A DNA stretch of 25,738 bases from a virus (lineage: Duplodnaviria > Heunggongvirae > Uroviricota > Caudoviricetes). Where the stretch lies: IMG/VR virus record IMGVR_UViG_2795385890_000001. One strand, written 5' to 3'. Below the pieces are notes generated by a model. That model searched no databases. It was given only the letters and a program-made list of their open reading frames with translations, and was not told the DNA's origin. Shown piece after piece: positions 5,222 to 21,827 of the stretch (positions are counted from its first letter, which is position 1; each line of letters begins with the position of its first letter). The translations under genes and the position numbers were made by a program.

Positions 5222-5599
5222 ATGAAGGACACCTCACTGTTGGGCATCAAGACGTGGAGTGATCTCCGCGCCTTCATACACACCGCAATACCCGGGCTGG
5301 CCGTCTTCCTGGTCACCATGGGGATTCTGACGGCCACCAAAGCGAATCTGGTTGCGGCACTGCTGCTTGCGGTGTTCGACTCGACCCTGTCGCACATCAA
5401 CACCGCCGATGGCTTCCGGCGCTGGGTGTACCCCGTCCTCGGTACCGGTGCCACCCTCCTCATCGGGTGGGGCATCTTCACTCAGGACCAGATCGCGCCA
5501 TGGCTTGCGCTCATCCCAATTCTGTTGGGGGGCGGGCTCGCAGCGGCCAACACCAACACCACGCCTAGCATCGTTCCGACGAGCGGCCCGGCTGAGTGA
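5222..5599 (+). CDS. Holin
   Basis: 125 aa with several TM helices and an internal duplication; 'LAAANT' C-terminal motif of mycobacteriophage holins; follows lysB. Confidence 0.85.
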   Translation: MKDTSLLGIKTWSDLRAFIHTAIPGLAVFLVTMGILTATKANLVAALLLAVFDSTLSHINTADGFRRWVYPVLGTGATLLIGWGIFTQDQIAPWLALIPILLGGGLAAANTNTTPSIVPTSGPAE

Positions 5600-6006
5600 G
5601 CGGGGGAGTGGGCGCTGATTCCTGGATGGACCTGGCCGCCCTGACCATCGCGGCCGTCGGCGGCTGGGGCACCGCGTACATCACCTCGCACTTCTCCAGC
5701 CGCAAGCACGTGACCGCCGTCAACAAAAGCGTCGACGCGGTCGAGGCGAAGTTGGCAGGAGTGGAGGAGCAGGTAGTGAACTCACACGAGACCAACCTGC
5801 GCGACGACGTGGACCGCGCAGTCCGCGGCGTCGAGTATCTGGTCGACAGATTCGCCGATGCCATGCGCGACCTGCGCGGTATCCGCGAGGAGATGTCCGA
5901 CCTGCGCAAGGAAGTTGGCGGCCTGCACGGCGACGTTCGCGAGCAGAACCGCAGGCACGCCGCCCTGTACGACCGGGTGACTGATCTGGAGGACCGCCGC
6001 CCCTAG
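5596..6006 (+). CDS. Membrane-anchored coiled-coil protein of the lysis cassette (DUF2746-like)
   Basis: N-terminal TM helix, 'VVNSHETNLRDDVD' motif, coiled-coil C-terminus; GTGA overlap with holin. Confidence 0.75.
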   Translation: MSGGVGADSWMDLAALTIAAVGGWGTAYITSHFSSRKHVTAVNKSVDAVEAKLAGVEEQVVNSHETNLRDDVDRAVRGVEYLVDRFADAMRDLRGIREEMSDLRKEVGGLHGDVREQNRRHAALYDRVTDLEDRRP

Positions 6007-6026
6007 GCCCACGCGATAGCTGGAGG

Positions 6027-6055
6027 ACGCCCCGGCCTTCGGGCCGGGGCGTTTT
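6027..6055 (+). terminator. Intrinsic terminator after the lysis cassette
   Basis: ACGCCCCGGCC-TTCG-GGCCGGGGCGT perfect 11-bp stem followed by a T run. Confidence 0.85.
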
Positions 6056-6083
6056 CCCGTACCAGCCGGTTGCCTCCGCATAT

Positions 6084-6099
6084 GTATAGCGCGGTATAC
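6084..6099. promoter_or_regulatory. Palindromic operator copy 1 (GTATAGCGCGGTATAC), overlapping a TATACT -10 of a probably leaderless gene
   Basis: One mismatch to the 16-bp palindrome at 10885-10900; TATACT at 6095-6100 lies 6 nt before ATG 6107. Confidence 0.7.
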
Positions 6100-6106
6100 T
6101 GCGCGC

Positions 6107-6328
6107 ATGGATACCCCGTCGGATGAGCAGGAGGCGGCCCGGGCTTCTGTCCGTCGGCTAGCCCGCCGCCGCCGACGTCAGGCTGTGTTGCGCAAGCAGA
6201 CCGACACCGAGTTCTACGAGGCCGTCAAACAGGCCAAGGCGTTGGGTGTCGGCGCCACCGTGCTGGCACGTGATGCCGAGGTAAAGCGCGACAGTATCTA
6301 CAAAATCGTGGACGGCTCTATCTCCTGA
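6107..6328 (+). CDS. Small HTH DNA-binding protein (candidate repressor)
   Basis: 73 aa; C-terminal HTH-like 'GVGATVLARDAEVKRDSIYKIV'. Confidence 0.8.
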   Translation: MDTPSDEQEAARASVRRLARRRRRQAVLRKQTDTEFYEAVKQAKALGVGATVLARDAEVKRDSIYKIVDGSIS

Positions 6329-6335
6329 GCGAGCG

Positions 6336-6992
6336 TTAGCCCGCGACGTACCAGTCGTCTCCGATTGCCGTACGCAGGAACGCCATGTGCACGTGAATCT
6401 GGAACAAGTGCGTGCTCTCCACAATGGCAGCACCGCCAATTCGTAGACCCGGCGCGAACCCGTATACCTCGTCGAACTGCAACGGCCCCAGGTGCTCATA
6501 CACGCGATCGAACATGGGTTCCTCATCGCGGCCGCGGAAGTCGAACTGGTCTTTCCTTGCAGCCGTGAAGAAAGCCTGCATTGCGCGTTCAAGGCTATGT
6601 GGTGACGAGTCTTTCGGGGGTGCCCAGAAAAACGCCGATCCTCGGGCGGGCTCAACGGTTATCGACATTCCGTACCCCGGGGTCCAGAAGAACGTCTTTC
6701 CGAAGGCGCTACGTAGGAACGGGATATACAGCGCGTTTTCGTCTAGGCGAGGGTGTCGGAGGGTGTCGAGGAGGACCTCGTCGGCGGTGACCTTCCACTC
6801 GATCGGATCAACAAGCCAGGCGATTCCGTTGCCAACGCCGGAGAACCCGTACTCCTGCCAATACGAGATAAGGCAATCGGGAACCAGCCCGGTGTAGTCG
6901 CGCACGTGTTCATCGGTGCACGCAGGCCCGCTGGTTGAGAGAGGGAACTTCGTTAGGAAGTACTCAAAGTATTCGTCGGCCACGCGCGGCAC
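6336..6992 (-). CDS. GAD-like/DUF1851 (Tdi-type) immunity protein, paralog 2
   Basis: 'Y.GLVPDCLISYWQEYG...W.VDP' GAD-like N-terminus and 'LGPLQFDEVYGFAPGL..GG' DUF1851 C-terminus; ~70% identical to the neighbour by manual alignment. Confidence 0.88.
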   Translation of the reverse strand: MPRVADEYFEYFLTKFPLSTSGPACTDEHVRDYTGLVPDCLISYWQEYGFSGVGNGIAWLVDPIEWKVTADEVLLDTLRHPRLDENALYIPFLRSAFGKTFFWTPGYGMSITVEPARGSAFFWAPPKDSSPHSLERAMQAFFTAARKDQFDFRGRDEEPMFDRVYEHLGPLQFDEVYGFAPGLRIGGAAIVESTHLFQIHVHMAFLRTAIGDDWYVAG

Positions 6993-7034
6993 CTTCTACT
7001 AGCGCAAAAGGTGCGGTGCACCCTGCTGGTTGTG

Positions 7035-7691
7035 TCAGCCCGTGACCACGTACCAGTCGTCCCCTATGGCCGTGCGCAGGAACGCCATGTGGACGTGGAC
7101 CTGGAATAAGTGGGTGGCCTCCACGATTGCAGCACCACCCATGAGCAGTCCTGGCGCGAACCCGTACACCTCATCAAACCGTAGCGCTCCGAGATGTTCG
7201 TAAACTCGATCAAACATGGGTTCTTCGTTGCGATCACGGAATTCGAAGCGATCCTTGTCGGACATGGTGATGAATGCTTCTAGCGAACGCTGGAGGCCAC
7301 TCGTGGATTGCTTTCGTGCGGGGGGCTTAACAAACAACACTCCGCGCGCTGGGTCTGTGACCAGCGATATGCCGTAGCCCGGTGTCCAGAACCACACCTT
7401 CCCGAAAGCGCTTCGGATGAACGGAATGTATTGTGCGTCCTCGCTTAGTTGCGGGTGCCGCACTCTGTCGAGGAGGATTTCCTCGGTGGTTGACTTCCAT
7501 TCGATGGGATCGACTAACCAGGCAGTTCCGTTGCCGAACCCGGAGAATCCGAACTCTTGCCAGTACGAGATAAGGCAGTCAGGGACAAGGCCGGTGTAGG
7601 CCCGTACGTGCTCCTCCGTGCATGCAGGGCCAGGGATGGAGAGGGGTAGCTCTTCGAGGAAGCACGCGAAGTACTCGTCCGGCACCTTCAC
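7035..7691 (-). CDS. GAD-like/DUF1851 (Tdi-type) immunity protein, cognate paralog 1
   Basis: Same motifs; start overlaps the toxin stop codon (GTGA). Confidence 0.9.
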   Translation of the reverse strand: MKVPDEYFACFLEELPLSIPGPACTEEHVRAYTGLVPDCLISYWQEFGFSGFGNGTAWLVDPIEWKSTTEEILLDRVRHPQLSEDAQYIPFIRSAFGKVWFWTPGYGISLVTDPARGVLFVKPPARKQSTSGLQRSLEAFITMSDKDRFEFRDRNEEPMFDRVYEHLGALRFDEVYGFAPGLLMGGAAIVEATHLFQVHVHMAFLRTAIGDDWYVVTG

Positions 7692-9874
7692 TCCCTACCG
7701 AGTCTGATGTTGACGATGGCATTCGGATCTTGGGTTTCCAGCCAATTCCGAAGCGCGTCCTTCTCCTGTTTGGTCAAGTTACCAAGCGCGTTGTTGACCT
7801 GCCAATCGCCATAGGTGAATGCCTGCCGGTATCCGCCGCCCGCGCCGTCCGGATTGTGGATCACTGGCTGGGGAATTAGGCCCGAACCGGATGGGAACTG
7901 TGTGTCTGCGTACTCGCGCGCAAGGCGTTTCGCCTCGGACGGGCTGTACCCCGCGTCCATCAAGTCTTCGGCACCATAATCCGCAAGGCCTCTTCGTAGC
8001 TCATCTCTAAGGTCTGTGGTGGGTAGCCGTGGCGCGTCCATGTTGTCGAGAACTTGCTGGACGCTTTGCGTGTTGTAGCCGTGCTCCCACATTTGGGTAT
8101 GGCGGTCGATCTCTGCGCCGTGATCGGCAGCAATTTTGTCGGTGTATGTCGGGTGGTGAATGTCGTATTGCGGGGTTCGTGGCAACTCGTCTACGGGTAC
8201 CCCGTGGTGGGCTGCGAGGTCGGCAAGGTTCTGTTCACCTCTGGCCCAATCGAGTTGGTCGCGTTCGAGGCGGTGTGCGGCGCGGGAGTCGTTGAGGATG
8301 TCGTCGGCTGAACGTGGGAGTCCGGCAGCGTGTTCGATGTTGGCGGGAATGCCATGGTCTCCGCCTGGGTGGTCCGCCGCAGGTGTCGGGTGGTCCACTG
8401 TTGGTGCGGGATGTGTTGTGCCGCTTGGCGGTTCGGTGGGTGCGTGTCCTGATGTATGGGGTTCAGCGGTGTGCGGGCTGGGCGCGTGCCCTGGCGCAGC
8501 GTCTTCGAGTCCGTGGGTGAGGGCGCGGCCTTCGGTGCCGAGTAGTGCGCCTTCGCCGCCGACGGGTGCTGTTGCGATGCCTGCGGCGATTTCTATGCCG
8601 TGTTTGCCGATGAAGGCTTTGGGGTTGTCGATGCCGGATTTGACCTCATCGATAGCGCCCTTAGCCTGGTCGATGCCGCGTTCCACCTGGTGGACGGGAT
8701 CGGGGTTGACTACATCCCACAGCCCTTTAGCGACGCCCTTCCATGCCTCTTTCGCGTGGTCGCCACCGTTGATACCCAGCAGGTCATCCTTGGCGCGGCC
8801 AGCTTGATCCCAAGACTCGGCGAATGCCCCGCCACCGGATTGCCGGACACGCTCAGGTGTACCGGGTTCGGGTGTTGCGACCATGGGCCGGTCCTGCTGG
8901 GCGCCCTTGATGGCCTCGGATAGCTTGGCCTCCACCTGATCAGGCGGATACTGCGTGGCCAGGATGCTGCGGAACTTGTCGATGGCCGCTTTGCCCTGCG
9001 GAGTGTTGGGGTCCAGCTTGGGCGCTGGCACCGTACGGGCATCCGGTGGCGATGGTGGTTTGTCCAACGGGCTCTTGGGCTCGGTAATACCCATTACGCC
9101 CAGTTTGTCGGTGAGGCCACCTGCGCGTGGATCGGGTTGGAAGGGCTTGTCGCCGGGTGAGGGCGGCCCAAGCACGGGCGCGTTCGGATCGACAGCGGTA
9201 GCGGCTGCTGCTTGTGTGCTGGCCGGGCTTGACTCCTTCGGGTACCACTGCTTGTAGAAGTTGGCATCCTGCGCGGTGTCAGGCTTCCGGGGTGCCGTGT
9301 CTTTGACGGCCTTGCCGATGTCGAAAGTGCCTGCCGCGCCGTTGACTTCGTTCTCAATGTCGCGGACCGCACCCTCGGCTAAACGCTTAACCTCTTGTTC
9401 GGCCTCCCACCACTTACGCGCCGACTCTCTAAGCTCCTCACCCCTGGCTTTGGCTACCTTGGCATTCTCGGCCGCCAGCTCCTCACTGATTCCCGGTGGC
9501 GGGTTGTAACCCACTTCCAGATCCTCCGAAAGGGTCAGACCCTTATCGCGTTGTCGCTCAATGTTTTCGATCATGTGCTGGCAGTTGGTCAACTCAGGCA
9601 CAATCGTGTGATCCACTGCCAGGCCAGCAGTCGTTTGAAACTTAGTATCTATGTCCTGAATCCGGGCCGTGACTTTCCAACCATCAGCGGCATTGCGTTG
9701 GCCTGCCTCGGCGGTCTGCCCCTCCCACGCCGTGCCACCGGGTTTATCGACATAACCCTTAAACGTCGAGATGTGCTGCTCATACTTGGTGGCCATCGCG
9801 TGCACAGCATCGAGCTGAGGCCGATATGAGTTCGCATCAATCCCGAGAATCACCGACTTCGTTGGCCCCGACAT
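7688..9874 (-). CDS. ESX-secreted polymorphic toxin: WXG100-like N-terminus, Pro-rich linker, Ntox15 (Tde-like) DNase C-terminus
   Basis: WEG at ~aa 50; C-terminal 'VIHNPDGAGGG...GDWQVNNALG...VNIRL' matches the Ntox15 HxxD signature (HNPD at 7847-7858); followed by Tdi-type immunity genes. Confidence 0.88.
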   Translation of the reverse strand: MSGPTKSVILGIDANSYRPQLDAVHAMATKYEQHISTFKGYVDKPGGTAWEGQTAEAGQRNAADGWKVTARIQDIDTKFQTTAGLAVDHTIVPELTNCQHMIENIERQRDKGLTLSEDLEVGYNPPPGISEELAAENAKVAKARGEELRESARKWWEAEQEVKRLAEGAVRDIENEVNGAAGTFDIGKAVKDTAPRKPDTAQDANFYKQWYPKESSPASTQAAAATAVDPNAPVLGPPSPGDKPFQPDPRAGGLTDKLGVMGITEPKSPLDKPPSPPDARTVPAPKLDPNTPQGKAAIDKFRSILATQYPPDQVEAKLSEAIKGAQQDRPMVATPEPGTPERVRQSGGGAFAESWDQAGRAKDDLLGINGGDHAKEAWKGVAKGLWDVVNPDPVHQVERGIDQAKGAIDEVKSGIDNPKAFIGKHGIEIAAGIATAPVGGEGALLGTEGRALTHGLEDAAPGHAPSPHTAEPHTSGHAPTEPPSGTTHPAPTVDHPTPAADHPGGDHGIPANIEHAAGLPRSADDILNDSRAAHRLERDQLDWARGEQNLADLAAHHGVPVDELPRTPQYDIHHPTYTDKIAADHGAEIDRHTQMWEHGYNTQSVQQVLDNMDAPRLPTTDLRDELRRGLADYGAEDLMDAGYSPSEAKRLAREYADTQFPSGSGLIPQPVIHNPDGAGGGYRQAFTYGDWQVNNALGNLTKQEKDALRNWLETQDPNAIVNIRLGRE

Positions 9875-9884
9875 CCCAGAACCC

Positions 9885-10202
9885 CTACGCGTGCGGGGTT
9901 GGATGCTGGGACATATTGCCGATCGAACGCATCACGGCCACCCCGTGCTCCTCGTTTTCGATCACGCCCGACAGGAACGCGCCCCGCACATCATTGAACG
10001 CACCCGTCCACCCCACCAAGGCATTCCCCACATTCGGCAGAGTCTCGGTAGCCAACCGTTGCAACGCCGCCAGCGCTGGGCTAGCACCGGGAGACGACGC
10101 ACCGCCTGCGTGTATGTCGCTACGCAACTCTCCCCGAAGGGTATCGATCTGTTTGCCCAACCTGTCGAGCGCATCCAGATCAGCCCGCAAAACGCCGCCC
10201 AT
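9885..10202 (-). CDS. WXG100-like / type VII secretion partner protein
   Basis: 105 aa helical; 'VLRADLDALDRLG' start and WTG motif; directly upstream of the toxin. Confidence 0.8.
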   Translation of the reverse strand: MGGVLRADLDALDRLGKQIDTLRGELRSDIHAGGASSPGASPALAALQRLATETLPNVGNALVGWTGAFNDVRGAFLSGVIENEEHGVAVMRSIGNMSQHPTPHA

Positions 10203-10366
10203 GCACCGCCCCTTGTGCTTTGGAAATCTAGAACCGGGCTACAGTTCGGCCCGGTCGGTCACTGTGAGCGTAGTAGCAGGAATTGGCTGCCGTCTAGCCA
10301 AACGACGATATTCGCGCAGTAAGCGGGGCATTGCAGTGCCGTCAAAGGCGGAAGGTAAGGGTTGCG

Positions 10367-10819
10367 CTAACAACCGGCGGCGGCGGCTAAATCCTGCTCC
10401 CGCGGTGTCCGGTTGGCGGGCGAGGTGGCGCATGCCCGGTCCACATCTCGGCCGCCCTGGTTGTTGTTCGACTGGGCCTGGTTAACCCGTTCCAGGCGAG
10501 TGGGGCACACGTAACGCATGCCCCGCCGGACAATAGCCATGGTGCCATCGGTGTCCGCGGCGACCATCGACTCGAACTCGTCGACGGTCTTGTCGCAGTC
10601 CTGCGCCGCCAGCTCGTAGAGGCGTGCCATGTCCGGTGAAGCCCCGGGGCTCGCGGCAAGTATCTCGGCCTTCCAGCCGCTCATGTCGACCGACGTCTGG
10701 GGCAGTATCGCCGGTTTTTGTGCCGCGGAAGTCGTCGGCGTCTTCTCCGCCGGTGCACCGCCGCACCCTGCCATCGCAGCCGCTGCCACCACGATGCATA
10801 GCCCCCACCTAATTCTCAT
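10367..10819 (-). CDS. Putative lipoprotein
   Basis: Signal peptide with lipobox 'AMAG-C', Pro/Thr-rich linker, paired Cys. Confidence 0.8.
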   Translation of the reverse strand: MRIRWGLCIVVAAAAMAGCGGAPAEKTPTTSAAQKPAILPQTSVDMSGWKAEILAASPGASPDMARLYELAAQDCDKTVDEFESMVAADTDGTMAIVRRGMRYVCPTRLERVNQAQSNNNQGGRDVDRACATSPANRTPREQDLAAAAGC

Positions 10820-10881
10820 GGCCGAACTCTAAACCGGGGTAGCCGCGAAAGGGGGACCGTTGACGACAAACCGCTCGACAC

Positions 10882-10903
10882 AACGTATAGCGCGCTATAC
10901 GTT
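10882..10903. promoter_or_regulatory. Palindromic operator copy 2 (perfect 22-bp AACGTATAGCGCGCTATACGTT) inside a SigA-like promoter
   Basis: Perfect inverted repeat; TCGACA (10875-80), 17 bp, TACGTT (10898-903). Confidence 0.8.
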
Positions 10904-10942
10904 CAAGTGGAATTTCCAGCGAACACCAGGGAAGGTCTCACC

Positions 10943-11260
10943 ATGTCAATTGCAAGCACTGCAATCACGCTGACCGCGGACGAGTTGGATGTGGTCAGCC
11001 GCTCCATGCTTGTCCACGAACCGCACCCGGACGTACGTCCGGCCTTCGACTGGGTAGGTCGGGGTCACCGGCCGCCGTGTCTCGCCTACCGCGGTGACCG
11101 GGTCGTCGAGTTCGGATACGAGGTCGCGGTGGTGGTGGCGGCCCGGCAGGGAGATGACGACGTCTACGCGATCCGCAGGGCCATCGAATCCCTCGGGCCT
11201 TGTCATCGCCAGGGCCGTATCCACTTCTGGCCAGGTGTGATTCCCGCGGTTGCCGCCTGA
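10943..11260 (+). CDS. Hypothetical protein (105 aa)
   Basis: ATG 10943 after GGGAAGG; downstream of the operator/promoter; followed by a terminator. Confidence 0.7.
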   Translation: MSIASTAITLTADELDVVSRSMLVHEPHPDVRPAFDWVGRGHRPPCLAYRGDRVVEFGYEVAVVVAARQGDDDVYAIRRAIESLGPCHRQGRIHFWPGVIPAVAA

Positions 11261-11277
11261 ATCTTCCTAGTTACTTC

Positions 11278-11314
11278 TCACCCCCGCCCCATGTGGGCGG
11301 GGGTGATTTCTTTT
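11278..11314 (+). terminator. Intrinsic terminator
   Basis: TCACCCCCGCCC-CATGT-GGGCGGGGGTGA 12-bp stem followed by TTTCTTTT. Confidence 0.85.
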
Positions 11315-11335
11315 CTTCATGCTCATGCTTGCCTA

Positions 11336-11357
11336 AACGTATAGTGCGCTATACATT
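11336..11357. promoter_or_regulatory. Palindromic operator copy 3 (AACGTATAGTGCGCTATACATT) inside a SigA-like promoter
   Basis: Core has one mismatch to copy 2; TTGCCT (11329-34), 17 bp, TACATT (11352-57). Confidence 0.78.
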
Positions 11358-11394
11358 CGAGCTATCGGTTAAGCAAACATCAACAGGAGGAACC

Positions 11395-12579
11395 ATGACC
11401 GCGCCAACACTCCCCGCAGTACCCGCCCGCACCCTGCGCAACGCCAACATCGGAAACCTCATAACGCTGCTGGAGCAGCAGCACCGGCAGAAGGTGGACA
11501 TCGTCATGCCCGTCTCTGACGTGCGGTTCACCGGCGGCGACCTGGTCATCTCGGACCAGGCGCCCGACATCAACGACGAAGGCGTCACCGACTTCAACGG
11601 GACCTACCGGATGACCGACCGCTCCGACAGCCAGCTCGGCGACGTCCTCGACATCCCCACCCGCTATGTCCGCAAGCTGCGCGCACAGCACCTGGAACTG
11701 ATGGACACCAACGTCAACGAACTGGCCCGGGTGCACGACCCCGCCAAGAAGGTCCTCGTCCGCATGCTGTCGGGCAGCGACCCCATGTACCCCGGCACCC
11801 ACGGCATCGTCCGCGCTGTGCTGTCCGACCGGTACGGCATCCGCGACAACCTCGACACCGTGCTCGCACTGCTCGATGGGATGCGCGCGGCCGGTCTCGG
11901 CGCCCAGCACATCCGCGGCGCAGACTTGTCCGACGAGAGGCTGTACCTGCGGGTGACCGCACCGGAGCTGGAGGTCGTTGCCCCCAAGCTGCTGGAGGGC
12001 TACCGCTCACCCTGGGCAGGCACAGCACACGGCGGCGAAGCCGCCAACACCCTGCCGGTCGTCTACGCCGGAATGCTGGTCACCAATAGCGAGACCGGCG
12101 GCGGCGCACTCACCATCACCCCAGAGCTGCGTATCAGGATCTGCGACAACGGCCTCACCATCAACGCCGACGCCATGCGCAAGATCCACCTCGGCAAGAA
12201 GCTGGACGACGGCAAGGTGAACTGGTCGGCCGACACCATCGACGCCGCCAACGACCTGATCAAGAAGCAGGTCCGCGACGCCGTCGCGTCCTTCATGAAC
12301 GTCGACTACGTGAAGACCGCTATCGAGAAGCTGGAGGAGACCAGCGGCACCCCGCTCACCGCCCCTGCCGACGTGATCGAGGTCGTGGCCAAGAAGCTGT
12401 CCTACAGCCAGGACGAACAGCGCGGCATCCTGGACCACTTCATCAAGGGCGGCCAGATGACCGCGGGCGGCGTCATGCAGGCCGTCACGTCGTACGCCCA
12501 GCTGATCGCTGACGTCGACCGCTCCAACGAATTCGCGGCCACCGGTGTGGACGCCATGCTCGTGGCCGCCGGTCGCTGA
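11395..12579 (+). CDS. DUF932-like family protein (394 aa)
   Basis: GGAGG RBS and ATG 11395; 'NSETGGGALTITPELRIRICDNGL' resembles the DUF932 NSxDG...RxxCxNGL motif. Confidence 0.75.
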   Translation: MTAPTLPAVPARTLRNANIGNLITLLEQQHRQKVDIVMPVSDVRFTGGDLVISDQAPDINDEGVTDFNGTYRMTDRSDSQLGDVLDIPTRYVRKLRAQHLELMDTNVNELARVHDPAKKVLVRMLSGSDPMYPGTHGIVRAVLSDRYGIRDNLDTVLALLDGMRAAGLGAQHIRGADLSDERLYLRVTAPELEVVAPKLLEGYRSPWAGTAHGGEAANTLPVVYAGMLVTNSETGGGALTITPELRIRICDNGLTINADAMRKIHLGKKLDDGKVNWSADTIDAANDLIKKQVRDAVASFMNVDYVKTAIEKLEETSGTPLTAPADVIEVVAKKLSYSQDEQRGILDHFIKGGQMTAGGVMQAVTSYAQLIADVDRSNEFAATGVDAMLVAAGR

Positions 12580-12587
12580 CTGCTGTA

Positions 12588-12650
12588 GGGGAAGGAGGGC
12601 CACCCGAGGGGAAGGAGGGCCACCCGAGGGGATGGGTGGCCCTCCTTCTA
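12588..12650. terminator. Terminator-like hairpin with a tandemly duplicated 20-bp left arm, between convergent genes
   Basis: GAAGGAGGGCCACCCGAGGG x2 (12591-12630), then the inverted GGGTGGCCCTCCTTC (12634-12648). Confidence 0.7.
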
Positions 12651-13974: not shown

Positions 13975-14098
13975 TAGAGCGGAACCGTAAATCGAAGTCG
14001 GAAATTCACAGATATTTCCAAGGGGTTTGTTATCAAACTGCAAGATCCGATCATCTGACAGTCGAATTCAGCAAACATGCGTAACCAGACCCGTAGTG

Positions 14099-14239
14099 TC
14101 ATGCGGCATCGGCTTCGAGTTCTGCTGCGCGCCGCCTGCTGCGGTGCGCTACTAGGTCTGTAGGCTCGGTGTCGATGCAGGTCAACGGGTTTCGAACTAC
14201 TGACCAGAAGGTTAGGGGTTCGAATCCCTTCGGGCGCAC
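14099..14239 (-). pseudogene. Severed C-terminal tail of an integration-dependent phage repressor (VRPKGFEPLTFWSVVRNPLTCIDTEPTDLVAHRSRRRAAELEADAA*) ending in an ssrA-like tag
   Basis: 46-codon open frame running antisense through the att core to TGA at 14101-14099, ending ADAA; lies directly upstream of an arm-less integrase. Confidence 0.72.
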
Positions 14240-14241
14240 CA
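14205..14241 (+). repeat. att core copy 1 (prophage attR / satellite attL): 3' end of tRNA-Arg including CCA
   Basis: CAGAAGGTTAGGGGTTCGAATCCCTTCGGGCGCAC(CA): T-arm GGTTCGAATCC, acceptor strand and ACCA; 35 bp identical to 23839-23873; no 5' tRNA half upstream. Confidence 0.92.
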
Positions 14242-14308
14242 TCTATCAGTGCAAATACGCGTTACGGAGTGCGTGACACGCCCGGAATCTGATACTTTCC
14301 CTCCACTT

Positions 14309-15472
14309 TTAGCCGCCACTTTCAGCGAACTGCTCCAAAGCCGCTCGGACATCGGGGCCTCGGGTCTGGCGCTCTAAGTAATGCGCCTCGGTGGTGGCCA
14401 ACTTGGAATGGGAGAGCTGCTGCTGCGCCTTATCAGGGCCGTGAGCATCACGGACAACGGTGGCGACCGTGCGTCTGAACGAGTGCGGCGTGACCCAGCT
14501 CAGTTCATCCGGCAGAGCTGCACGCAGAGCCCGACGCATGTTGGCTAGGGACATCCAGCCGCCCTGACGATTGGCGAACACTGGGCCTTCCATACCGGAC
14601 TCTCCGACAAGCTCCGTGAGGGTCTCAACACCAAACTTGGGTAGAACAACGGTGTGCGGGGGAGCATGGTGCTTGCGGTGGTCCTGCCGGTGCAGTGGCT
14701 TACCCACGATGCGCCCGTGGTCGATCAACGTCCCGGTAATCGTCAGGGTAGGTGGGTCCGCCAACAGGTCAACATCAGACCACCTCGTAGCTAGTACTTC
14801 GCTGGGTCGGCAACCTGTCGCCACCAACACGTCAATGAATGCGGCGAGAAGTCGGCCAGGACGCGGCCCGGAACCTTTCCGAGTCGAGTACGCCTGGACG
14901 GCAGCCCGGATCTGCCGGAACTCAGCTGCTGTAGCCGCGCGAGCTGGCTTACGCGTCGTTTTGACCGGCTTCGCCTCGCGGATCGGGTTCACCGGTAGGA
15001 CATCGAATCTAACGGCCATCGAGAACATTCCCGACAGCACCGTGCGCAGCCGCTTGGCCTGAGTCGTTGCCCCCATCCCCTGTAGATAGTTGTGCGCCGA
15101 TTGGGTGCGTAACTCCGTGACCCTTAGGGAGCCCAACTGGGCGGCGCCATGGGTTTTCCATACCGCCCGATACTGGTCTACCGTCTGCTGTAGAACGCCG
15201 TCCTCGGCTGCCTTTGCTTCGATCCACAGATCGAACAAGTCAGTGAGGGCGGTTTTTTCTGTCACCAGTTGCCCGGAGAGCGGCGCGCGTCGGGCGTTCA
15301 AGTGCCGCTGGAGCGCGCGCCGCGCATCCTCGGCAGATTTCTCGCTGGACCGCTCTACTCGTCGCCGCTTGCCATCAGAGTCACGCACGTAGGTAGAAGC
15401 GAAAAACATTCGACCACTTACCCGTTCGGTGATCTTGCCGTGCTCCCCCGGAGCGAGCCGCTGCCTAGGCAT
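14309..15472 (-). CDS. int: Satellite tyrosine integrase with an N-terminal arm-binding region
   Basis: GCRPSE, HSFRR, LSH and HY motifs; basic N-terminal beta domain 'YVRDSDGKRRRVERS'; adjacent to the att core. Confidence 0.93.
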   Translation of the reverse strand: MPRQRLAPGEHGKITERVSGRMFFASTYVRDSDGKRRRVERSSEKSAEDARRALQRHLNARRAPLSGQLVTEKTALTDLFDLWIEAKAAEDGVLQQTVDQYRAVWKTHGAAQLGSLRVTELRTQSAHNYLQGMGATTQAKRLRTVLSGMFSMAVRFDVLPVNPIREAKPVKTTRKPARAATAAEFRQIRAAVQAYSTRKGSGPRPGRLLAAFIDVLVATGCRPSEVLATRWSDVDLLADPPTLTITGTLIDHGRIVGKPLHRQDHRKHHAPPHTVVLPKFGVETLTELVGESGMEGPVFANRQGGWMSLANMRRALRAALPDELSWVTPHSFRRTVATVVRDAHGPDKAQQQLSHSKLATTEAHYLERQTRGPDVRAALEQFAESGG

Positions 15473-16040
15473 CCTCGTTACCCTCGATTTGTTGCCACAA
15501 TTCGCGAATCATTCTGTCGTACATTTCGATTTGATCGCGGTCACGGTCAAGTTCGGCTCGCGCCGTCACGCGGGCGCGGGCATCTTCCAATTCCGCCAGG
15601 CGTCGCCATTGGCGAAGCTGATCTGTGCGCCAAGCAAATCCGAAATCGCCGTCGAACGCACTCGCTAGCTCTTGCGACCACCCGTTTGCCGAAAACCACT
15701 GCGCTGCATCGAATTCCGGAACTTCTCGTTCAGGTAGAAATTCCACCGAATCGGAATACGGGCCGGGGTACATCAGCGTTACTGGGGACGTATCGAGTGC
15801 GGCAGCGAGTATTACTAGCTCAGCGGTCGTGACATACCTACGTCGCCCATTCTCCAAATCGGAAATCACCGAACGGGATACTTCGTGGCCGAGTTCCTTG
15901 GTCCGAGCCGCAAGCCACTGCGCTGACCTCTTTCCGCGAAGCCGGTAAACCTCGCGCGCCAATCTATGCGCTTCACGTTCCGCCCAGCTGTCGGGCGGCC
16001 GTTCCGTCCAACTCGGCCTTTTCGGCCCTGATTGCGTCAT
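15465..16040 (-). CDS. XRE-family HTH repressor of the satellite
   Basis: 'SAQWLAARTKELGHEVSRSVISDLENGRRRYVTTAELVILAAALD' XRE HTH; overlaps the int start by 8 bp; divergent from xis. Confidence 0.87.
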   Translation of the reverse strand: MTQSGPKRPSWTERPPDSWAEREAHRLAREVYRLRGKRSAQWLAARTKELGHEVSRSVISDLENGRRRYVTTAELVILAAALDTSPVTLMYPGPYSDSVEFLPEREVPEFDAAQWFSANGWSQELASAFDGDFGFAWRTDQLRQWRRLAELEDARARVTARAELDRDRDQIEMYDRMIRELWQQIEGNEDA

Positions 16041-16167
16041 GACACGCAGGATATGCACTGCTTGCGTTCATTGCCATCCGCCTGGTATCTATTGAGTCGC
16101 AGAAACGCAACTTATCGGATGTCTGCGTGTTTGAACGCACAAGCAGCCATGAACGGAGGAGGACGCA

Positions 16168-16335
16168 ATGCACGACCACAAGGCAGTGGGGGCAAAGCTC
16201 GGAGGTATCAGCAGAACGCTGGTGTTCCAGCTCTGGCACTCTGGTGCCCTCGCCAGCGTGAGGATTGGTAAGCGCCGATTCAGCACTGACAGGCAGATCA
16301 ACGAGTACATCGCCAAGCTTGAAGGCGCGGCGTGA
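16168..16335 (+). CDS. Excisionase/AlpA-like HTH_17 protein (55 aa)
   Basis: GGAGGAGG RBS; MHDHKAVGAKLGGISRTLVFQLWHSGALASVRIGKRRFSTDRQINEYIAKLEGAA; absent from the ORF track. Confidence 0.82.
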   Translation: MHDHKAVGAKLGGISRTLVFQLWHSGALASVRIGKRRFSTDRQINEYIAKLEGAA

Positions 16336-16625
16336 GTATCGAGGCGTACAGGATCGCGGCGCGGCTAGCGCAAGAGCCGTGGGTTCCCTTGTCGCCATGC
16401 ATTATTCGGGATGGCAAGGTGGTTCCGAATTCCACGGCCAGCGTGGAGGCCGAGGGCGATGTGATCACGGTGACCGTGACCGACGCTGACGGGGCCAAGC
16501 GCGAATATCGCGCACAAGTTCAGCTCGTCGGCACAAGTTCGGCTATGCCAACGGCCCCCGTAGTCCCCGACGCGGCAACGTCGGGCGGGAGCCGCTGCAA
16601 CCAACCATCAACAGAAAGTAGGTAA
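16332..16625 (+). CDS. Hypothetical protein (97 aa)
   Basis: GTGA overlap with xis; operon context. Confidence 0.6.
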   Translation: MSIEAYRIAARLAQEPWVPLSPCIIRDGKVVPNSTASVEAEGDVITVTVTDADGAKREYRAQVQLVGTSSAMPTAPVVPDAATSGGSRCNQPSTESR

Positions 16626-16630
16626 ATCTC

Positions 16631-17128
16631 ATGGTACAGATCGAATTTGGCGACGACACCCGGACATGGCGTGACTTGGTTGATCGACTACCGGCTGACT
16701 GGGTAGCGCAGTTGGAGCGCGCCGAGGAGTTGGCGGCGGCTGGGGTCACGCCATGGCGGGCCACGAGTCAGGCCGACAACGCAGCGTTGAGTCTCCTTTT
16801 CAAGATCACCCTCGATATCGAGACGCATCAAGCTGGTATCCGGTTCGCGCATGTGCCGATCCCAGCTCAAGCCTCACATGCTGACCAGTGGATGAACATG
16901 GGCTCTAAGGAATCGCCGGACTGGGGGCGCAGGCTAGAGGGCGCCCGGTTCGAGGTGGGCGAGGGCTTGGGGCATGTGCTCATAGAGGGCACCCAGCAGG
17001 CCGCAGATGGTTCGGTTGAGTGGGGCGTGCGTTGGGTCAATGGTGTCGAGGACTGGATGGAAGCGAGCGCGGCGCGACGCCTGACTGATGCGCTGCGCGC
17101 CGCCGCTGAGGTCGTGGAGTCCTTGTGA
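16631..17128 (+). CDS. Hypothetical protein (165 aa)
   Basis: Operon context; C-terminal 'AARRLTDALRAAAEVVESL' helix common in actinophage small proteins. Confidence 0.7.
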   Translation: MVQIEFGDDTRTWRDLVDRLPADWVAQLERAEELAAAGVTPWRATSQADNAALSLLFKITLDIETHQAGIRFAHVPIPAQASHADQWMNMGSKESPDWGRRLEGARFEVGEGLGHVLIEGTQQAADGSVEWGVRWVNGVEDWMEASAARRLTDALRAAAEVVESL

Positions 17129-17164
17129 TCGGAACAGATTGCACTCATCACGCGGTGGAGCGCG

Positions 17165-17383
17165 ATGCCTCTGCGTGAGTGCGCACGGGCACCATTGGGC
17201 GGCGGGCTTGTTGGTCGGCTGCCCGATGGGCCTGGGGGAGTGCACGAGTTGTGCGTCACGGTGCGTGATGGTGTGCGCCCTGTTGTGCGCTGCGACGTGC
17301 ATCGCGCGGCCCAGTTGCACGCCAGCGTGCGCGCTAGCCGAAGCCGTGCATTGCCTGCTGACGCACAGGGCGGCTTACCGTGA
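17165..17383 (+). CDS. Possible hypothetical protein (72 aa)
   Basis: Fills the gap and has a GTGA overlap with rep; an alternative frame (17088..17402) cannot be excluded. Confidence 0.35.
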   Translation: MPLRECARAPLGGGLVGRLPDGPGGVHELCVTVRDGVRPVVRCDVHRAAQLHASVRASRSRALPADAQGGLP

Positions 17384-18174
17384 CGCCAGAGCAGCGCCGT
17401 GACTGGCGCGATTATGTTCTCGGGGCCAAGGCCCTGACGTTGGCCCAGCGGATAGTTCTCCTGGCGCTTGAGACGTTCGCCGACTACGCGGACGGCACCA
17501 ACGCGCGGCCTGGAATAGAAGGGCTCATGCGGAAATGCGGGCTCACCGAACGGGCTGTGGAAACGGCGCTCAAGCGAGGCCGCGAGCTGGGGCTCATCCA
17601 GCGCACAGCAAACGGATTCAAGCGTCATGCCGCCGTGTATCGGCTGGTTCCGATCGCAAATACCCCGCATGGCGGTGCGGGTCAAAACGGTGATACCCCG
17701 CATGGCCGTGCGGGTCAAAATAGCCAAAGCCCGCACAGCGGTGCGGGTCAACGGTCCGATAGCCCGTACGGCGGTGCCTCTTTGACCCGCACGGCGGTGC
17801 CCCCCACCACATCAGGACCACATCAAAAGAGGGGGTTGCGTTATGGGGGTACGGAACTTGACGACCCGGACGCCTACGCGATCACCCCCGCCAGCCGAGG
17901 GCGGCAATCAGCTAACGGCAATGAGACGGGGACGCGTTGCGCCAAGCACGCGCACATCGCACCTGATGCCTGGGTGGGTGAGAGCTGCCGCGACTGCGCA
18001 GCGCTGCGCAAGGCTGCCACGGCGTCGGAGGCCGAACGCAAACGCGCAGCCGTGCAGGTGATTCGGGACTGCCCGGATTGCGACGACTTGGGCCGGATCG
18101 AAGTCGATGACGGACTCAAGCCCTGCCCGCGTCACGTCAGCTGGGCGCAAGCCCAGGGAGGGAGAACCGCCTGA
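17380..18174 (+). CDS. Phage-type replication initiator: N-terminal winged-HTH, internal iterons, C-terminal Cys-rich domain
   Basis: 'ARPGIEGLMRKCGLTERAVETALKRGRELGLI' wHTH; 33-bp repeats inside the gene, as in lambda O-type initiators. Confidence 0.8.
   Translation: MTPEQRRDWRDYVLGAKALTLAQRIVLLALETFADYADGTNARPGIEGLMRKCGLTERAVETALKRGRELGLIQRTANGFKRHAAVYRLVPIANTPHGGAGQNGDTPHGRAGQNSQSPHSGAGQRSDSPYGGASLTRTAVPPTTSGPHQKRGLRYGGTELDDPDAYAITPASRGRQSANGNETGTRCAKHAHIAPDAWVGESCRDCAALRKAATASEAERKRAAVQVIRDCPDCDDLGRIEVDDGLKPCPRHVSWAQAQGGRTA
17664..17804. repeat. Iteron array (putative replication origin)
   Basis: CCCGCA-N6-TGCGGG-TCAA at 17664, 17697 and 17730 (33-bp period), a degenerate copy at 17763, and inverted TTGACCCGCAC at 17782-17792. 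Confidence 0.8.
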
Positions 18175-18380
18175 TGTCCTGCCGCTACTGCGCACACTGC
18201 CGCAAGACACGCGAGCGCGCCAACACCCGCCGCGAAGCGATCCGGCAGATACGCAACTGCCCACACTGTGACGACTACGGGCGCCTGGACAACCTCACCG
18301 ACTGCCCACGACACGGCAATTGGGCTGCCGCACAAGCACTCAACGAAACAGATGCTCAGGACCAGGAGGGGGCGCGGTGA
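18174..18380 (+). CDS. Small Cys-rich protein homologous to the initiator C-terminus
   Basis: CRYC...IRNCPHCDDYGRL...CPRH..WAAAQ versus initiator CRDC...IRDCPDCDDLGRI...CPRH..WAQAQ. Confidence 0.75.
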   Translation: MSCRYCAHCRKTRERANTRREAIRQIRNCPHCDDYGRLDNLTDCPRHGNWAAAQALNETDAQDQEGAR

Positions 18381-18700
18381 ACTGGGACACGCTGCTGGCC
18401 GAACTAGCCACGCCTGTACTGCCTGGGGCGCGCTGCCGGGGACGGCACGAGTTGTTCGACGCCGCTATCGGCGATGGCCGAGGCGCCCTGGACGAGCGCG
18501 ACTACGCCCGCCAGGCAGCGACGCGGATATGCCGCCAATGCCCTGCGCTGGCCTCGTGCCGGGAGTGGTTCGATTCCCTGCCGCACGAGCAGCGGCCGCT
18601 CGGGGTTACCGCCGCCGTGGTGGTCAACTCGTACCCGCCGCGAAAGAAGCAGGAAATCACCACCAAAGACGGCCAGGACGAGGCGACGGGGGCGGCATGA
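18377..18700 (+). CDS. WhiB-like Fe-S transcription regulator
   Basis: Four Cys in WhiB spacing (ARC...ICRQCPALASC); 'GVTAA' in place of GVWGG; GGAGG RBS. Confidence 0.8.
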   Translation: MNWDTLLAELATPVLPGARCRGRHELFDAAIGDGRGALDERDYARQAATRICRQCPALASCREWFDSLPHEQRPLGVTAAVVVNSYPPRKKQEITTKDGQDEATGAA

Positions 18701-19059
18701 GCACGACAGCGCAGCCTTGCACCCAATGCGCCACGGGAGAGCACCGCGTGGTCAGCGTGCGGGATCTTCGCACCGCCGCATGGGTGCTCGGGGAGGAACT
18801 AGCGCGCCGTCGCCGCCAAGGCACCCCGATCCCACCGGCCTTGCATCGAACATGGGAAGCGTTGCAGCGCAGTGTGTCCGATAGCGGACAGGTTTCTGGA
18901 CACCCCGAAACGGCGGGAGCAGAATTGGAGACAGTGCAACAAAGGGCTGAGCGCCTTGGAGTTTCGCCCCGCACCATCCGCCGCCACGCACTCAAATCCG
19001 GGCAACGCAAAGTCGGCGGGCGCTGGATCTTCGACGAAAGGCAAGAACCACATGGATAA
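18697..19059 (+). CDS. Protein with N-terminal CxxC and C-terminal HTH (120 aa)
   Basis: ATGA overlap; 'AERLGVSPRTIRRHA...KVGGRWIF' HTH_17/MerR-like motif. Confidence 0.75.
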   Translation: MSTTAQPCTQCATGEHRVVSVRDLRTAAWVLGEELARRRRQGTPIPPALHRTWEALQRSVSDSGQVSGHPETAGAELETVQQRAERLGVSPRTIRRHALKSGQRKVGGRWIFDERQEPHG

Positions 19060-19351
19060 ACCCGACTGGAAGCAGGTGCTACAGCAGCTCAACAGTGACA
19101 CCGAAGCCCCTGCCACCGATCTGCTACGGCGACTGCGTGGCGACGAGACCGCAACGGACAGTGCCGATTCCGAGGACCTTAAGCGTCTTTACGAACGCCT
19201 CGGCACTCCTCCCGCACCGCAGCCTGAATCGTCCAACTACGTACCGGGCGAGGGCAACAATCACCGGCCCCGGAAACACCCGCGTCAAGTCGAAATCAAC
19301 TTCCTGCGCGAAGCCCTAACCGGCGAAATCGCTTTCAACGAAAACTACTAG
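19052..19351 (+). CDS. Hypothetical acidic, low-complexity protein (99 aa)
   Basis: ATG 19052 overlapping the upstream gene; C-terminal part of the 18872..19351 ORF. Confidence 0.7.
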   Translation: MDKPDWKQVLQQLNSDTEAPATDLLRRLRGDETATDSADSEDLKRLYERLGTPPAPQPESSNYVPGEGNNHRPRKHPRQVEINFLREALTGEIAFNENY

Positions 19352-19362
19352 GAGACAAACAC

Positions 19363-20109
19363 ATGTCCGTCTACACCGCCACAACCCGTTCCTACCTCGT
19401 CCAGGTGCAACGCGCCGCCGAACGCCTTGAAATTCCGCTGCCCGATCCATTCGTAGAGGCTGTGGCCTCGGCCCGAGCGTTGGTCGAGAAGGCGCAGATC
19501 GGTGCTGGCAGCGCGGACGCCCTCAGGTACTCCGTGCTCAGCTGCATGAAGAAGGACCAGGATTACCACGCTGACCCTGTGGTAACCGGCCACCTTCTTG
19601 ACCACATGCTTGCGCAGCTCGGCCTAGACCGCGCCGCCAAGGACGAGGAGGGGCGCACGATCGGTGAGGCGCTCAACGCTCACGCCGACACCATATTGGC
19701 CCAGTGGTCTAAATCCCTTGAACCATACGCTAATTCGCTTGAAGCTGCCGCTGAAGTGATCCCGACCGATGACCTCAACGACGGGCCGACGATCACCAAG
19801 GCCGGACCGAAAGCCGTCATCGCATGGTCCGAAGCCCTCGTGGCGCGCGAACGATTCGGCTACGCCGTCGAAGGACTCGGCGCGCTGCTGCAATCTGCCG
19901 GGATCGGTGGCGACCGCGCCCACACGTTGATCCCTAACGGCGATGCCTCCGCTGCACGCATCGTCGCCGCCCGCGCCAAGAACAAGTCTGATCTGCGCGA
20001 CGCCTGGCACGTGGCCCGCTGCGGATTTCGGCCAGTGCTGCCCACCGTCAGCGGCTACGTCGAGCGCCTCGGACAAGCCGCACTCCACGACGACCCCCCG
20101 GGGGAGTGA
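19363..20109 (+). CDS. Hypothetical alpha-helical protein (248 aa)
   Basis: GGAG RBS; last gene of the rightward operon. Confidence 0.8.
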   Translation: MSVYTATTRSYLVQVQRAAERLEIPLPDPFVEAVASARALVEKAQIGAGSADALRYSVLSCMKKDQDYHADPVVTGHLLDHMLAQLGLDRAAKDEEGRTIGEALNAHADTILAQWSKSLEPYANSLEAAAEVIPTDDLNDGPTITKAGPKAVIAWSEALVARERFGYAVEGLGALLQSAGIGGDRAHTLIPNGDASAARIVAARAKNKSDLRDAWHVARCGFRPVLPTVSGYVERLGQAALHDDPPGE

Positions 20110-20901: not shown

Positions 20902-20918
20902 TTTGGCAAACGTGTCTC

Positions 20919-21825: not shown

Positions 21826-21827
21826 TT

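What the first reader, a model, noticed from the sequence alone, without database searches (positions are those of the whole stretch)
6084..11357. Three-copy palindromic operator defines a mini-regulon that straddles the toxin cassette
Seen: core GTATAGCGCGCTATAC occurs at 6084 (1 mismatch), 10885 (perfect, extending to 22 bp) and 11339 (1 mismatch). Each copy overlaps a SigA-like promoter: TATACT before a leaderless HTH gene, TCGACA-17-TACGTT and TTGCCT-17-TACATT. The genes controlled would be the HTH gene, the 105-aa gene and the DUF932-like gene. Inference: the 73-aa HTH protein represses itself and the other two genes, giving a burst of expression on entry into a naive cell. This would parallel the CUP/ArdK control of anti-restriction genes on IncN plasmids. 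It also suggests the toxin cassette was inserted into a once-contiguous unit. Copy 2 lies between divergent genes and may also gate the lipoprotein/ESX operon.
Basis: partly seen in the sequence, partly recalled or inferred. Interest (0 to 1): 0.75.

Follow-up and report, generated by a model that had tools for sequence, protein, structure and literature searches.

The report
Shared operator in prophage cargo promoters
A 16-base palindrome sits inside three promoters in this window (six in the whole Mycobacterium abscessus MabK-type prophage) and is most likely the docking site of a small phage-encoded repressor. This is an ordinary kind of genetic switch, but I found no published description of it for this phage group.

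Summary
GTATAG-N4-CTATAC occurs at 6084, 10885 and 11339, against 0.04 matches expected by chance. Each copy covers the spacer and -10 of a mycobacterial-type promoter.

The window is the right arm of a cluster MabK M. abscessus prophage, 88% identical to prophiGD43A-5. The three copies are half of the set. Every complete MabK genome searched has six sites. The other three lie in front of a BrnT-like toxin-antitoxin pair, a secreted-protein/tRNA/Ro module, and gene 55.

In 42 instances from 9 genomes, GTATA and TATAC never vary, while the centre does. The motif occurs only at chance level in 301 Mycobacteriaceae genomes, so the binder is probably phage-encoded.

The 73-aa gene behind copy 1 is real (dN/dS about 0.14) and basic (pI 10.1). 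It folds with high confidence as a long helix plus a C-terminal helix-turn-helix. It is the best candidate repressor, but binding is not shown, and every other phage DNA-binding protein co-occurs with the motif.

The ArdK/CUP parallel is an analogy only. This scan has found the same motif before in other genomes. The switch is ordinary in kind and I found no description of it.

The parts
6019..6060 (+). Strong hairpin after the last lysis-block gene (5596-6006). It is a likely terminator that isolates promoter P1.
   Evidence: -37.2 kcal/mol, z -7.1, followed by UUUU. Conserved in all relatives.
6070..6100 (+). Promoter P1: TTGCCT (6070-6075), 19-nt spacer, TATACT (6095-6100).
   Evidence: The -10 lies inside the right arm of the palindrome, and ATG follows 6 nt later.
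6084..6099 (.). Operator copy 1 (GTATAGCGCGGTATAC).
   Evidence: Position 11 varies (G, T or C) among relatives; the arms GTATA and TATAC are invariant.
6107..6328 (+). 73-aa basic HTH protein (prophiGD43A-5 gp109 homologue), the candidate autorepressor.
   Evidence: PHROG HTH/repressor hits at E 2e-4 and 2e-3. AF2 pLDDT 93, helix 6-45 plus HTH at 50-57 and 61-69. pI 10.1 and dN/dS 0.11-0.19. HTH codons: 13 synonymous versus 5 non-synonymous changes between the two deep alleles.
6336..10202 (-). Variable polymorphic toxin cassette: two Tdi1-like immunity genes, a 728-aa toxin and a WXG-like gene. It carries no copy of the motif.
   Evidence: Homology to relatives breaks at 6306/6983 and resumes at 10224-10425.
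10367..10819 (-). 150-aa lipoprotein gene (lipobox MAGC) with its own TAGAGT-N6-ATG start signal at 10826-10831.
10875..10903 (+). Promoter P2: TCGACA, 17-nt spacer, TACGTT.
10885..10900 (.). Operator copy 2, a perfect match (22-bp palindrome at 10882-10903).
10943..11260 (+). 105-aa conserved protein of unknown function, downstream of P2.
   Evidence: 90-96% identical in relatives. No family hit. Fold model failed, pLDDT 40.
11278..11306 (+). Intrinsic terminator after the 105-aa gene.
   Evidence: 12-bp stem plus T-run; -27.7 kcal/mol, z -6.9.
11329..11357 (+). Promoter P3: TTGCCT, 17-nt spacer, TACATT.
11339..11354 (.). Operator copy 3 (GTATAGTGCGCTATAC).
   Evidence: It lies in the longest invariant run of this intergenic region.
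11395..12579 (+). 394-aa protein, phrog_1362, DUF932-like, downstream of P3.
   Evidence: E 2e-96 to phrog_1362. (Atlas score 0.97 to clusters in which 16-30% of members carry PF06067). Homologues in 244 phage records, mostly cluster C-type myophages.

Best explanation
The palindrome GTATA-N6-TATAC (16 bp, GTATAG-N4-CTATAC) is a transcriptional operator. It covers the spacer and the first bases of the -10 hexamer, about -26 to -11, of six SigA-type promoters in every MabK-type prophage. Three of the six are in this window. A dimeric, sequence-specific, phage-encoded protein bound there would block RNA polymerase and so co-repress six separate accessory-gene units.

The most likely binder is the 73-aa basic helix-turn-helix protein at 6107-6328. 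Its own leaderless promoter carries copy 1, which would make it an autorepressor that also shuts the other five promoters.

What is shown and what is inferred:
- Shown: the sites, their conservation, their fixed register with promoter hexamers, their absence from host genomes, and the HTH fold of the 73-aa protein.
- Inferred: that the sites are bound, that binding represses, and that the 73-aa protein is the binder.

My odds: operator for a specific protein about 0.85; phage-encoded binder about 0.8; binder is the 73-aa protein about 0.5.
For: Sites
- Three sites in the window against 0.04 expected.
- Six sites in each of six MabK records searched whole (prophiGD43A-5, prophiT37-1 and four complete IMG/VR proviruses), with none in the reversed-pattern control.
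- Across 42 instances, positions 1-5 and 12-16 are invariant and the centre varies.
- The site is the conserved island of the P2 and P3 intergenic regions.

Promoter register
- Five of six sites have a -35-like hexamer exactly 4 nt upstream. The last TAC of the palindrome starts a TACNNT -10.
- Four sites have an ATG 6-7 nt after the -10.
- P1 and P3 are each preceded by strong terminator hairpins.

Not a host motif
- 0 matches in five Mycobacteroides genomes.
- Chance-level single hits in 12 of 301 Mycobacteriaceae genomes.
- No close homologue in Mycobacteroides (best 36% identity) of the XRE regulator that sits next to a similar site in other mycobacteria.

The 73-aa protein
- AF2 pLDDT 93, long helix plus HTH.
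- Best structural and profile matches, all weak, are to resolvase-type and other HTH DNA-binding domains and to small actinophage HTH proteins.
- pI 10.1.
- Two alleles with saturated synonymous divergence (dS about 1.6) keep the HTH: 13 synonymous versus 5 non-synonymous codon changes, with R61, I64, Y65, K66 and I67 invariant. The operator arms stay unchanged.

Rivals next to other operators look poor
- The antitoxin next to P4 is acidic (charge -8) and shows no similarity to the RHH antitoxin of the homologous Gordonia phage Eyre module.
- The Eyre promoter lacks the motif.
Against: - No binding or expression data exist.
- Every annotated DNA-binding protein of prophiGD43A-5 (gp3, gp11, gp36, gp46, gp80, the TetR-like gp116 and the immunity repressor) is present in all MabK genomes compared. 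Co-occurrence therefore cannot single out the 73-aa protein.
- The 73-aa family is confined to MabK prophages, so protein and operator covariation could not be tested.
- Conservation of copy 1 partly reflects recent shared ancestry of the left flank (114 of 120 nt identical upstream).
- HTH family hits are weak (E 2e-4 at best). All structural matches are below significance.
- The promoters fall below an E. coli-type consensus scan.
Confidence: 0.5

Rival explanations
1. The palindrome is an operator, but the binder is another phage-encoded DNA-binding protein, such as gp46, gp36, gp11, gp3, gp80 or the TetR-like protein next to the integrase. On this reading the 73-aa gene is just one of the regulated genes.
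For: All of these proteins are conserved (59-99% identity) in every MabK genome compared, so none is excluded. gp46 (HTH, 99% conserved) lies about 1.5 kb from sites 4 and 5.
Against: None of these genes has the operator in its own promoter. The TetR-like protein is only 59% identical in two genomes whose operators are unchanged. The 73-aa gene is the only DNA-binding-type gene placed directly behind a site.
Confidence: 0.25
2. The sites are extra operators of the prophage immunity repressor, the XRE-type gene split by attP. The six promoters would then be silenced by the same switch as the lytic genes.
For: Integration-dependent-immunity phages such as BPs use short palindromic operators at several genome positions (my own knowledge). 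The repressor is present in all genomes.
Against: The repressor-excise intergenic region, where its operators must lie, has no match with up to 3 mismatches. It carries different dyads of the GCGCAT-N3-ATGCGC type. Repressors differ by 16-17% between genomes that have identical operator arms.
Confidence: 0.1
3. A host transcription factor binds the palindrome.
For: In several other mycobacteria a near-identical dyad, in tandem with GTATGG-N4-CCTATAC, precedes a membrane-protein plus XRE-regulator operon.
Against: No GTATAG-N4-CTATAC occurs in five Mycobacteroides genomes. They hold only 34-36% identical XRE paralogues of that regulator. Frequency in 301 Mycobacteriaceae genomes is near the chance level I estimated, apart from that locus and one repeat family.
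Confidence: 0.05
4. No dedicated protein binds the palindrome. The six sites are copies of one promoter module, and the dyad is a by-product of a symmetric -10-like sequence or a weak RNA or DNA hairpin.
For: The right arm doubles as part of the -10. In reverse orientation three sites also read TACGTT.
Against: The left arm lies in the spacer, where promoters need no specific sequence, yet it is invariant in 42 of 42 instances while the centre and flanks vary. The hairpin is weak (-9.1 kcal/mol for the longest version) and lies upstream of the predicted start sites.
Confidence: 0.08

Closest known systems
Classical phage operators that overlap core promoters (lambda/434 CI-Cro type; BPs gp33 12-bp palindromes in integration-dependent-immunity mycobacteriophages). 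Named from my own knowledge.
   Same: A short dyad with invariant 5-6 bp arms about one helical turn apart. It overlaps the -10/spacer and occurs at several promoters of one phage.
   Different: The motif is not at the immunity switch; the repressor-excise region lacks it. It marks six dispersed accessory-gene promoters. The candidate binder is a 73-aa protein unrelated to CI/Cro by sequence.
ArdK / CUP regulon of IncN and IncW plasmids
   Same: The idea is shared: a small HTH autorepressor acting on repeated promoter-operator units in front of accessory genes of a mobile element.
   Different: There is no significant sequence or fold relation. Only a 36-column generic HTH overlap was found (E 1.7). 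The repeated unit here is about 35 bp of promoter, not a long CUP repeat (CUP length is from my own knowledge). No anti-restriction function is shown for any controlled gene.
Aca-type autorepressors of anti-CRISPR operons (named from my own knowledge).
   Same: A small HTH protein whose gene sits behind a strong promoter that carries its own palindromic operator.
   Different: Aca proteins act on one operon, whereas here there are six promoters. No anti-defence gene is identified, and there is no homology evidence.
Cluster A / MabJ repressor with stoperators (PMC9934374).
   Same: One small repressor with many sites across a mycobacteriophage genome.
   Different: Stoperators are asymmetric 13-14 bp sites, oriented with transcription, numbering 14 or more, and mostly outside promoters. 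Here there are six symmetric sites, each inside a promoter.
C-terminal HTH of Tn3 / gamma-delta resolvase and small actinophage 'HTH DNA binding domain' proteins.
   Same: They are the best structural and profile matches of the 73-aa protein: a long helix followed by G-x-G-A-T...R-x-x-(I/V)-Y-K-I.
   Different: All matches are below significance (E 0.01-0.8). There is no catalytic domain, and the function of the phage look-alikes is unknown.

Membership tests
Promoter-overlapping repressor operator (CI/Cro-like logic) | Dyad-symmetric site with conserved arms about 10-11 bp apart | tested here: met
   GTATA and TATAC are invariant in 42 of 42 instances, 11 bp from arm start to arm start.
Promoter-overlapping repressor operator (CI/Cro-like logic) | Site overlaps the -35/-10 core of a functional promoter | tested here: inconclusive
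   Register with TANNNT -10 and -35-like hexamers is fixed, and ATG lies 6-7 nt downstream in 4 of 6 sites. No TSS data exist, and the E. coli-type consensus scan found none.
Promoter-overlapping repressor operator (CI/Cro-like logic) | Cognate DNA-binding protein binds the site and represses | not testable with these tools
   Needs EMSA, footprinting or reporter assays.
ArdK/CUP regulon | Regulator homologous to ArdK | tested here: inconclusive
   No sequence hit to ArdK. The Foldseek match to 7bcb covers only 36 columns at E 1.7. This is generic HTH similarity.
ArdK/CUP regulon | Controlled genes are anti-restriction or establishment genes | tested here: inconclusive
   The 394-aa gene is DUF932-like only by the Atlas. 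DUF932 has no known function in the papers searched. The 105-aa gene has no hits.
Cluster A-type stoperators | Asymmetric sites oriented with transcription, many per genome, mostly outside promoters | tested here: not met
   The sites are palindromic, six per genome, and all lie in promoter-like contexts.
Immunity-repressor operators of the MabK switch | Motif present in the repressor-excise (cro-like) intergenic region | tested here: not met
   No match with up to 3 mismatches in records W01 and W02 outside the six sites. The region has other dyads.
Toxin-antitoxin autoregulation by the antitoxin | Antitoxin has a DNA-binding domain (RHH in BrnA) | tested here: inconclusive
   gp49 is 64 aa with charge -8.4. 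It has no Pfam or NCBIfam hit and only one weak PHROG hit to a family of unknown function (E 0.005). It shows no similarity to the Eyre RHH antitoxin. Its structure was not modelled.
DUF932 (PF06067), for the 394-aa gene | Pfam model match above the gathering score | tested here: not met
   No Pfam hit even at E 5. There is only a feature-space neighbourhood to clusters that partly carry DUF932.

The most novel reading that the evidence does not exclude
The 73-aa protein is the master autorepressor of a prophage 'cargo regulon' that runs independently of the immunity switch. It would hold six strong promoters in check: a toxin-antitoxin pair whose antitoxin has no DNA-binding part, a secreted protein with the tRNA/Ro module, the gene-55 block, the 105-aa gene and the DUF932-like gene. 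That would give a burst of expression on entry into a naive cell and low, buffered expression in the lysogen. Its HTH half appears to have been exchanged together with the neighbouring toxin cassette.
Probability: 0.3. Interest if true: 0.55.

Novelty: new member of a known kind. Interest (0 to 1): 0.35.

Why it matters
M. abscessus prophages carry accessory genes (polymorphic toxins, toxin-antitoxin pairs, Ro/Y-RNA modules) that are thought to shape host fitness and phage resistance. How they are regulated is largely unknown.

A shared operator defines which MabK genes are switched together and names a testable regulator. It also corrects some annotation in relatives: start codons, a gene called on the wrong strand, and an unannotated secreted protein.

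The mechanism itself, a dimeric repressor on promoter-overlapping dyads, is textbook. The value is therefore local to this phage group.

Tried and rejected
The contexts of the three most distant homologues of the 73-aa protein (P0004, P0005, P0007) could not be fetched by that route.
- Scans for relatives of the 73-aa protein found nothing new. Genome contigs gave none. Metagenome contigs gave one further MabK copy. Plasmids gave two weak Streptomyces hits limited to the HTH. Operator and protein covariation was therefore impossible.
- I tried to exclude rival regulators by absence. All are conserved in every MabK genome.
- Pfam and NCBIfam gave nothing for the 73-, 105-, 150- and 394-aa proteins.
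- The AF2 model of the 105-aa protein failed, pLDDT 40.
- The Atlas gave nothing for the 105-aa protein.
- PDB fold searches with the 73-aa model gave only sub-threshold generic HTH matches.
- The E. coli-type promoter scan found no sites.
- A literature search for the motif strings gave 0 papers. The two MabK papers do not mention a palindrome, or an operator for this cluster.
- Hairpin or terminator role of the palindrome rejected: weak fold, upstream of the start sites.
- Host-regulon reading rejected.
Full report
**What the window is.** Bases 1 to about 14,240 are the right arm of a cluster MabK Mycobacterium abscessus prophage. Positions 5500-12600 are 87.9% identical to prophiGD43A-5 (MW584167) and partly to prophiT37-1 (OQ417969). 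The gene order is lysin A, lysin B, holin, a 136-aa gene, the 73-aa gene, a leftward polymorphic toxin-immunity cassette, a lipoprotein gene, a 105-aa gene, a 394-aa gene, a small TetR-like gene and a tyrosine integrase. Both records are assigned to cluster MabK, attB-1, with integration-dependent immunity, in PMC8092301 and PMC9934374.

**Observation.** The pattern GTATAGCGCGCTATAC with up to 3 mismatches occurs exactly three times in the window, at 6084, 10885 and 11339. The expected number is 0.04. Copy 2 is a perfect 22-bp palindrome.
- P1: TATACT at 6095-6100, with ATG at 6107.
- P2: TCGACA-17-TACGTT at 10875-10903.
- P3: TTGCCT-17-TACATT at 11329-11357.

They satisfy the mycobacterial TANNNT -10 rule (my own knowledge) but not the tool's E. 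coli-type cut-off. P1 and P3 are each preceded by a strong hairpin (-37.2 and -27.7 kcal/mol). The three promoters therefore head separate transcription units.

**The set is six, not three.** Whole-record scans of prophiGD43A-5, prophiT37-1 and four complete IMG/VR proviruses each give six sites. The reversed-pattern control gives none. A fifth provirus, 89% complete, shows four. In prophiGD43A-5 the extra sites are at 25342, 25390 and 28849.

Oriented by the downstream gene, five of the six sites share one plan. A -35-like hexamer is followed by 4 nt and then the 16-bp palindrome, whose last TAC starts a TACNNT -10. P1 is shifted by 2 bp. An ATG follows the -10 by 6-7 nt at P1, P4, P5 and P6, which is leaderless-type geometry. 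The units are:
- P4: a BrnT-like toxin (phrog_36779, E 1e-35) and its antitoxin.
- P5: a 111-aa signal-peptide protein not annotated in prophiGD43A-5, then tRNA-Thr and a Ro-like gene.
- P6: gene 55 and the block after it.

**Conservation.** In 42 instances from 9 genomes, positions 1-5 (GTATA) and 12-16 (TATAC) never vary. Positions 6 and 11 are mostly G and C, and the central four vary. In the P2 and P3 intergenic regions, the palindrome plus its -10 forms a conserved island among more variable flanks.

The sites persist on both sides of the toxin cassette even where the cassette is replaced and inverted, as in prophiT37-1 and three IMG/VR contigs. Homology to relatives ends at 6306 or 6983 and resumes at 10224-10425. 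This matches the cassette exchange described in PMC9934374.

**Who could bind.** The motif is not a host motif:
- It is absent from five Mycobacteroides genomes.
- It occurs in 12 of 301 Mycobacteriaceae genomes, mostly once. My estimate of the chance number is about 14 in 1.4 Gb.

Two exceptions were noted. One genome has 32 copies embedded in a longer palindromic repeat. Several mycobacteria have a locus where a near-identical dyad precedes a membrane-protein plus XRE-regulator operon. Mycobacteroides genomes hold only 34-36% identical paralogues of that regulator. A phage-encoded binder is therefore most likely.

The immunity repressor is unlikely. Its own control region has no copy of the motif and carries other dyads.

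**The 73-aa protein.**
- It has weak PHROG hits to an HTH DNA-binding family and a repressor family (E 2e-4 and 2e-3), and no Pfam hit.
- AlphaFold2 gives pLDDT 93: one long helix (6-45) and a C-terminal helix-turn-helix (50-57, 61-69).
- The best fold and profile matches are to the E-helix plus HTH of gamma-delta and Tn3 resolvases, to other HTH domains, and to many 65-90-aa actinophage proteins (TM up to 0.89). All of these matches are below significance.
- It is basic, pI 10.1.
- Its family is confined to MabK prophages of M. abscessus.
- Two deep alleles exist (70 of 219 nt differ, dS about 1.6, dN/dS about 0.14).
- The HTH codons show 13 synonymous against 5 non-synonymous changes. Residues 22-44 show 6 against 12.
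- R61, I64, Y65, K66 and I67 are invariant. This fits a protein that must keep reading an unchanged DNA site.

**Limits on that identification.** All other annotated DNA-binding proteins of the phage are also present in every MabK genome, so co-occurrence cannot discriminate. Among genes that sit directly behind a site, the antitoxin is acidic (charge -8.4). It is unrelated by BLAST to the RHH antitoxin of the homologous Gordonia phage Eyre module, whose promoter lacks the motif. The products of gene 55 and the 105-aa gene show no DNA-binding signal.

**Mechanism proposed.** A dimer of the 73-aa protein binds GTATA-N6-TATAC across roughly -26 to -11. It occludes the -10/spacer and represses all six promoters, including its own. 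The spacers are 17 nt at five promoters, so MerR-type activation is not indicated. Binding, repression and the identity of the binder are inferences. Whether the circuit gives a burst on infection or steady low expression in the lysogen cannot be told from sequence. PMC8092301 reports only that the toxin-immunity locus of prophiGD43A-5 is expressed in the lysogen and most other genes are silent.

- The ArdK/CUP comparison is an analogy.
- The DUF932 label rests on the Atlas only. DUF932 has no known function in the papers searched.
- Copy 2 is 55-70 bp from the lipoprotein gene's own conserved TAGAGT-N6-ATG signal. The toxin operon has its own 164-bp upstream region without the motif.

**Novelty.** No paper in the searchable library contains the motif. 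The two MabK papers do not mention a palindrome, and discuss operators only for cluster MabJ. This scan has met the same palindrome several times on other M. abscessus genomes and reached similar readings. My work adds the allele analysis of the 73-aa gene, its fold, and the host-genome controls. The kind of switch is ordinary.

Noticed in passing
window 14240-23880: A second, roughly 9.6-kb integrated element lies in tandem with the prophage. It has its own tyrosine integrase (14309-15472), an HTH_3 repressor-like gene (15465-16058), an HTH_36 protein (17380-18174) and an NlpC/P60 protein (21828-23102). DNA at 21560-22813 is 80% identical to a polymorphic toxin/WXG region of prophi91-3. The att core/repressor tail of prophiGD43A-5 matches twice, at about 14050-14243 and ending about 23877. 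Other notes of this scan treat it as a satellite.
   Followed up: partly
window 6336-6992 and 7035-7691: There are two tandem Tdi1-like (GAD-like plus T6SS_Tdi1_C) immunity genes, 71% identical. prophiGD43A-5 has one.
   Followed up: no
window 6107-6328 versus L002:6608-6826 and L026:10001-10219: The 73-aa gene has two deep alleles. Divergence starts at about codon 10-16, while the 120 nt upstream are 95% identical. A recombination junction therefore lies inside the gene. The divergent allele goes with the rightward PE-PPE-type toxin cassette.
   Followed up: partly
L011 (prophiGD43A-5) 25331, 25419-25754; L001:10742-11056: Three annotation points in the reference record. The BrnT-like gene probably starts at the ATG three codons upstream of the annotated start. 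A 111-aa signal-peptide ORF behind P5 is not annotated. Gene 114 is called on the minus strand, where all relatives conserve the plus-strand 105-aa ORF.
   Followed up: partly
L092-L097 and L099 (several Mycobacteriaceae genomes), position about 1480-1520 of each locus: A conserved host locus has two abutting 16-bp dyads, GTATGGTTTCCTATAC and GTATAG-N4-CTATAC. In L093, the one locus whose ORFs I listed, they lie in front of a 135-aa membrane protein and a 65-aa XRE-family regulator. This is probably that regulator's operator.
   Followed up: partly
G048 (one Mycobacteriaceae genome), e.g. L091:1480-1540: There are 32 copies of GTATAG-N4-CTATAC. In the one copy read (L091), it lies inside a longer palindrome (gcgcgcgaat...attcgcgcgc). 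This looks like a REP- or MITE-like repeat family.
   Followed up: no
G001 = IMGVR_UViG_2799113165_000002 (102.6 kb): Sites 2 and 3 lie at 1990 and 2446, and site 1 at 72214. About 26 kb of other genes follow the toxin cassette, including a 1003-aa ORF. The contig is either permuted or carries a large insertion between the cassette and the lipoprotein gene.
   Followed up: no
L142 (Streptomyces sp. WZ-12 plasmid) 1441-1641: A 66-aa protein has the same helix-plus-HTH layout, about 50% identical over residues 31-70. Its upstream region carries repeated TTCGCGA(A) palindromic motifs.
   Followed up: no
L011:25811-25824: A different palindrome, TATACCGCGGTATA, lies between P5 and the tRNA-Thr gene of prophiGD43A-5.
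   Followed up: no
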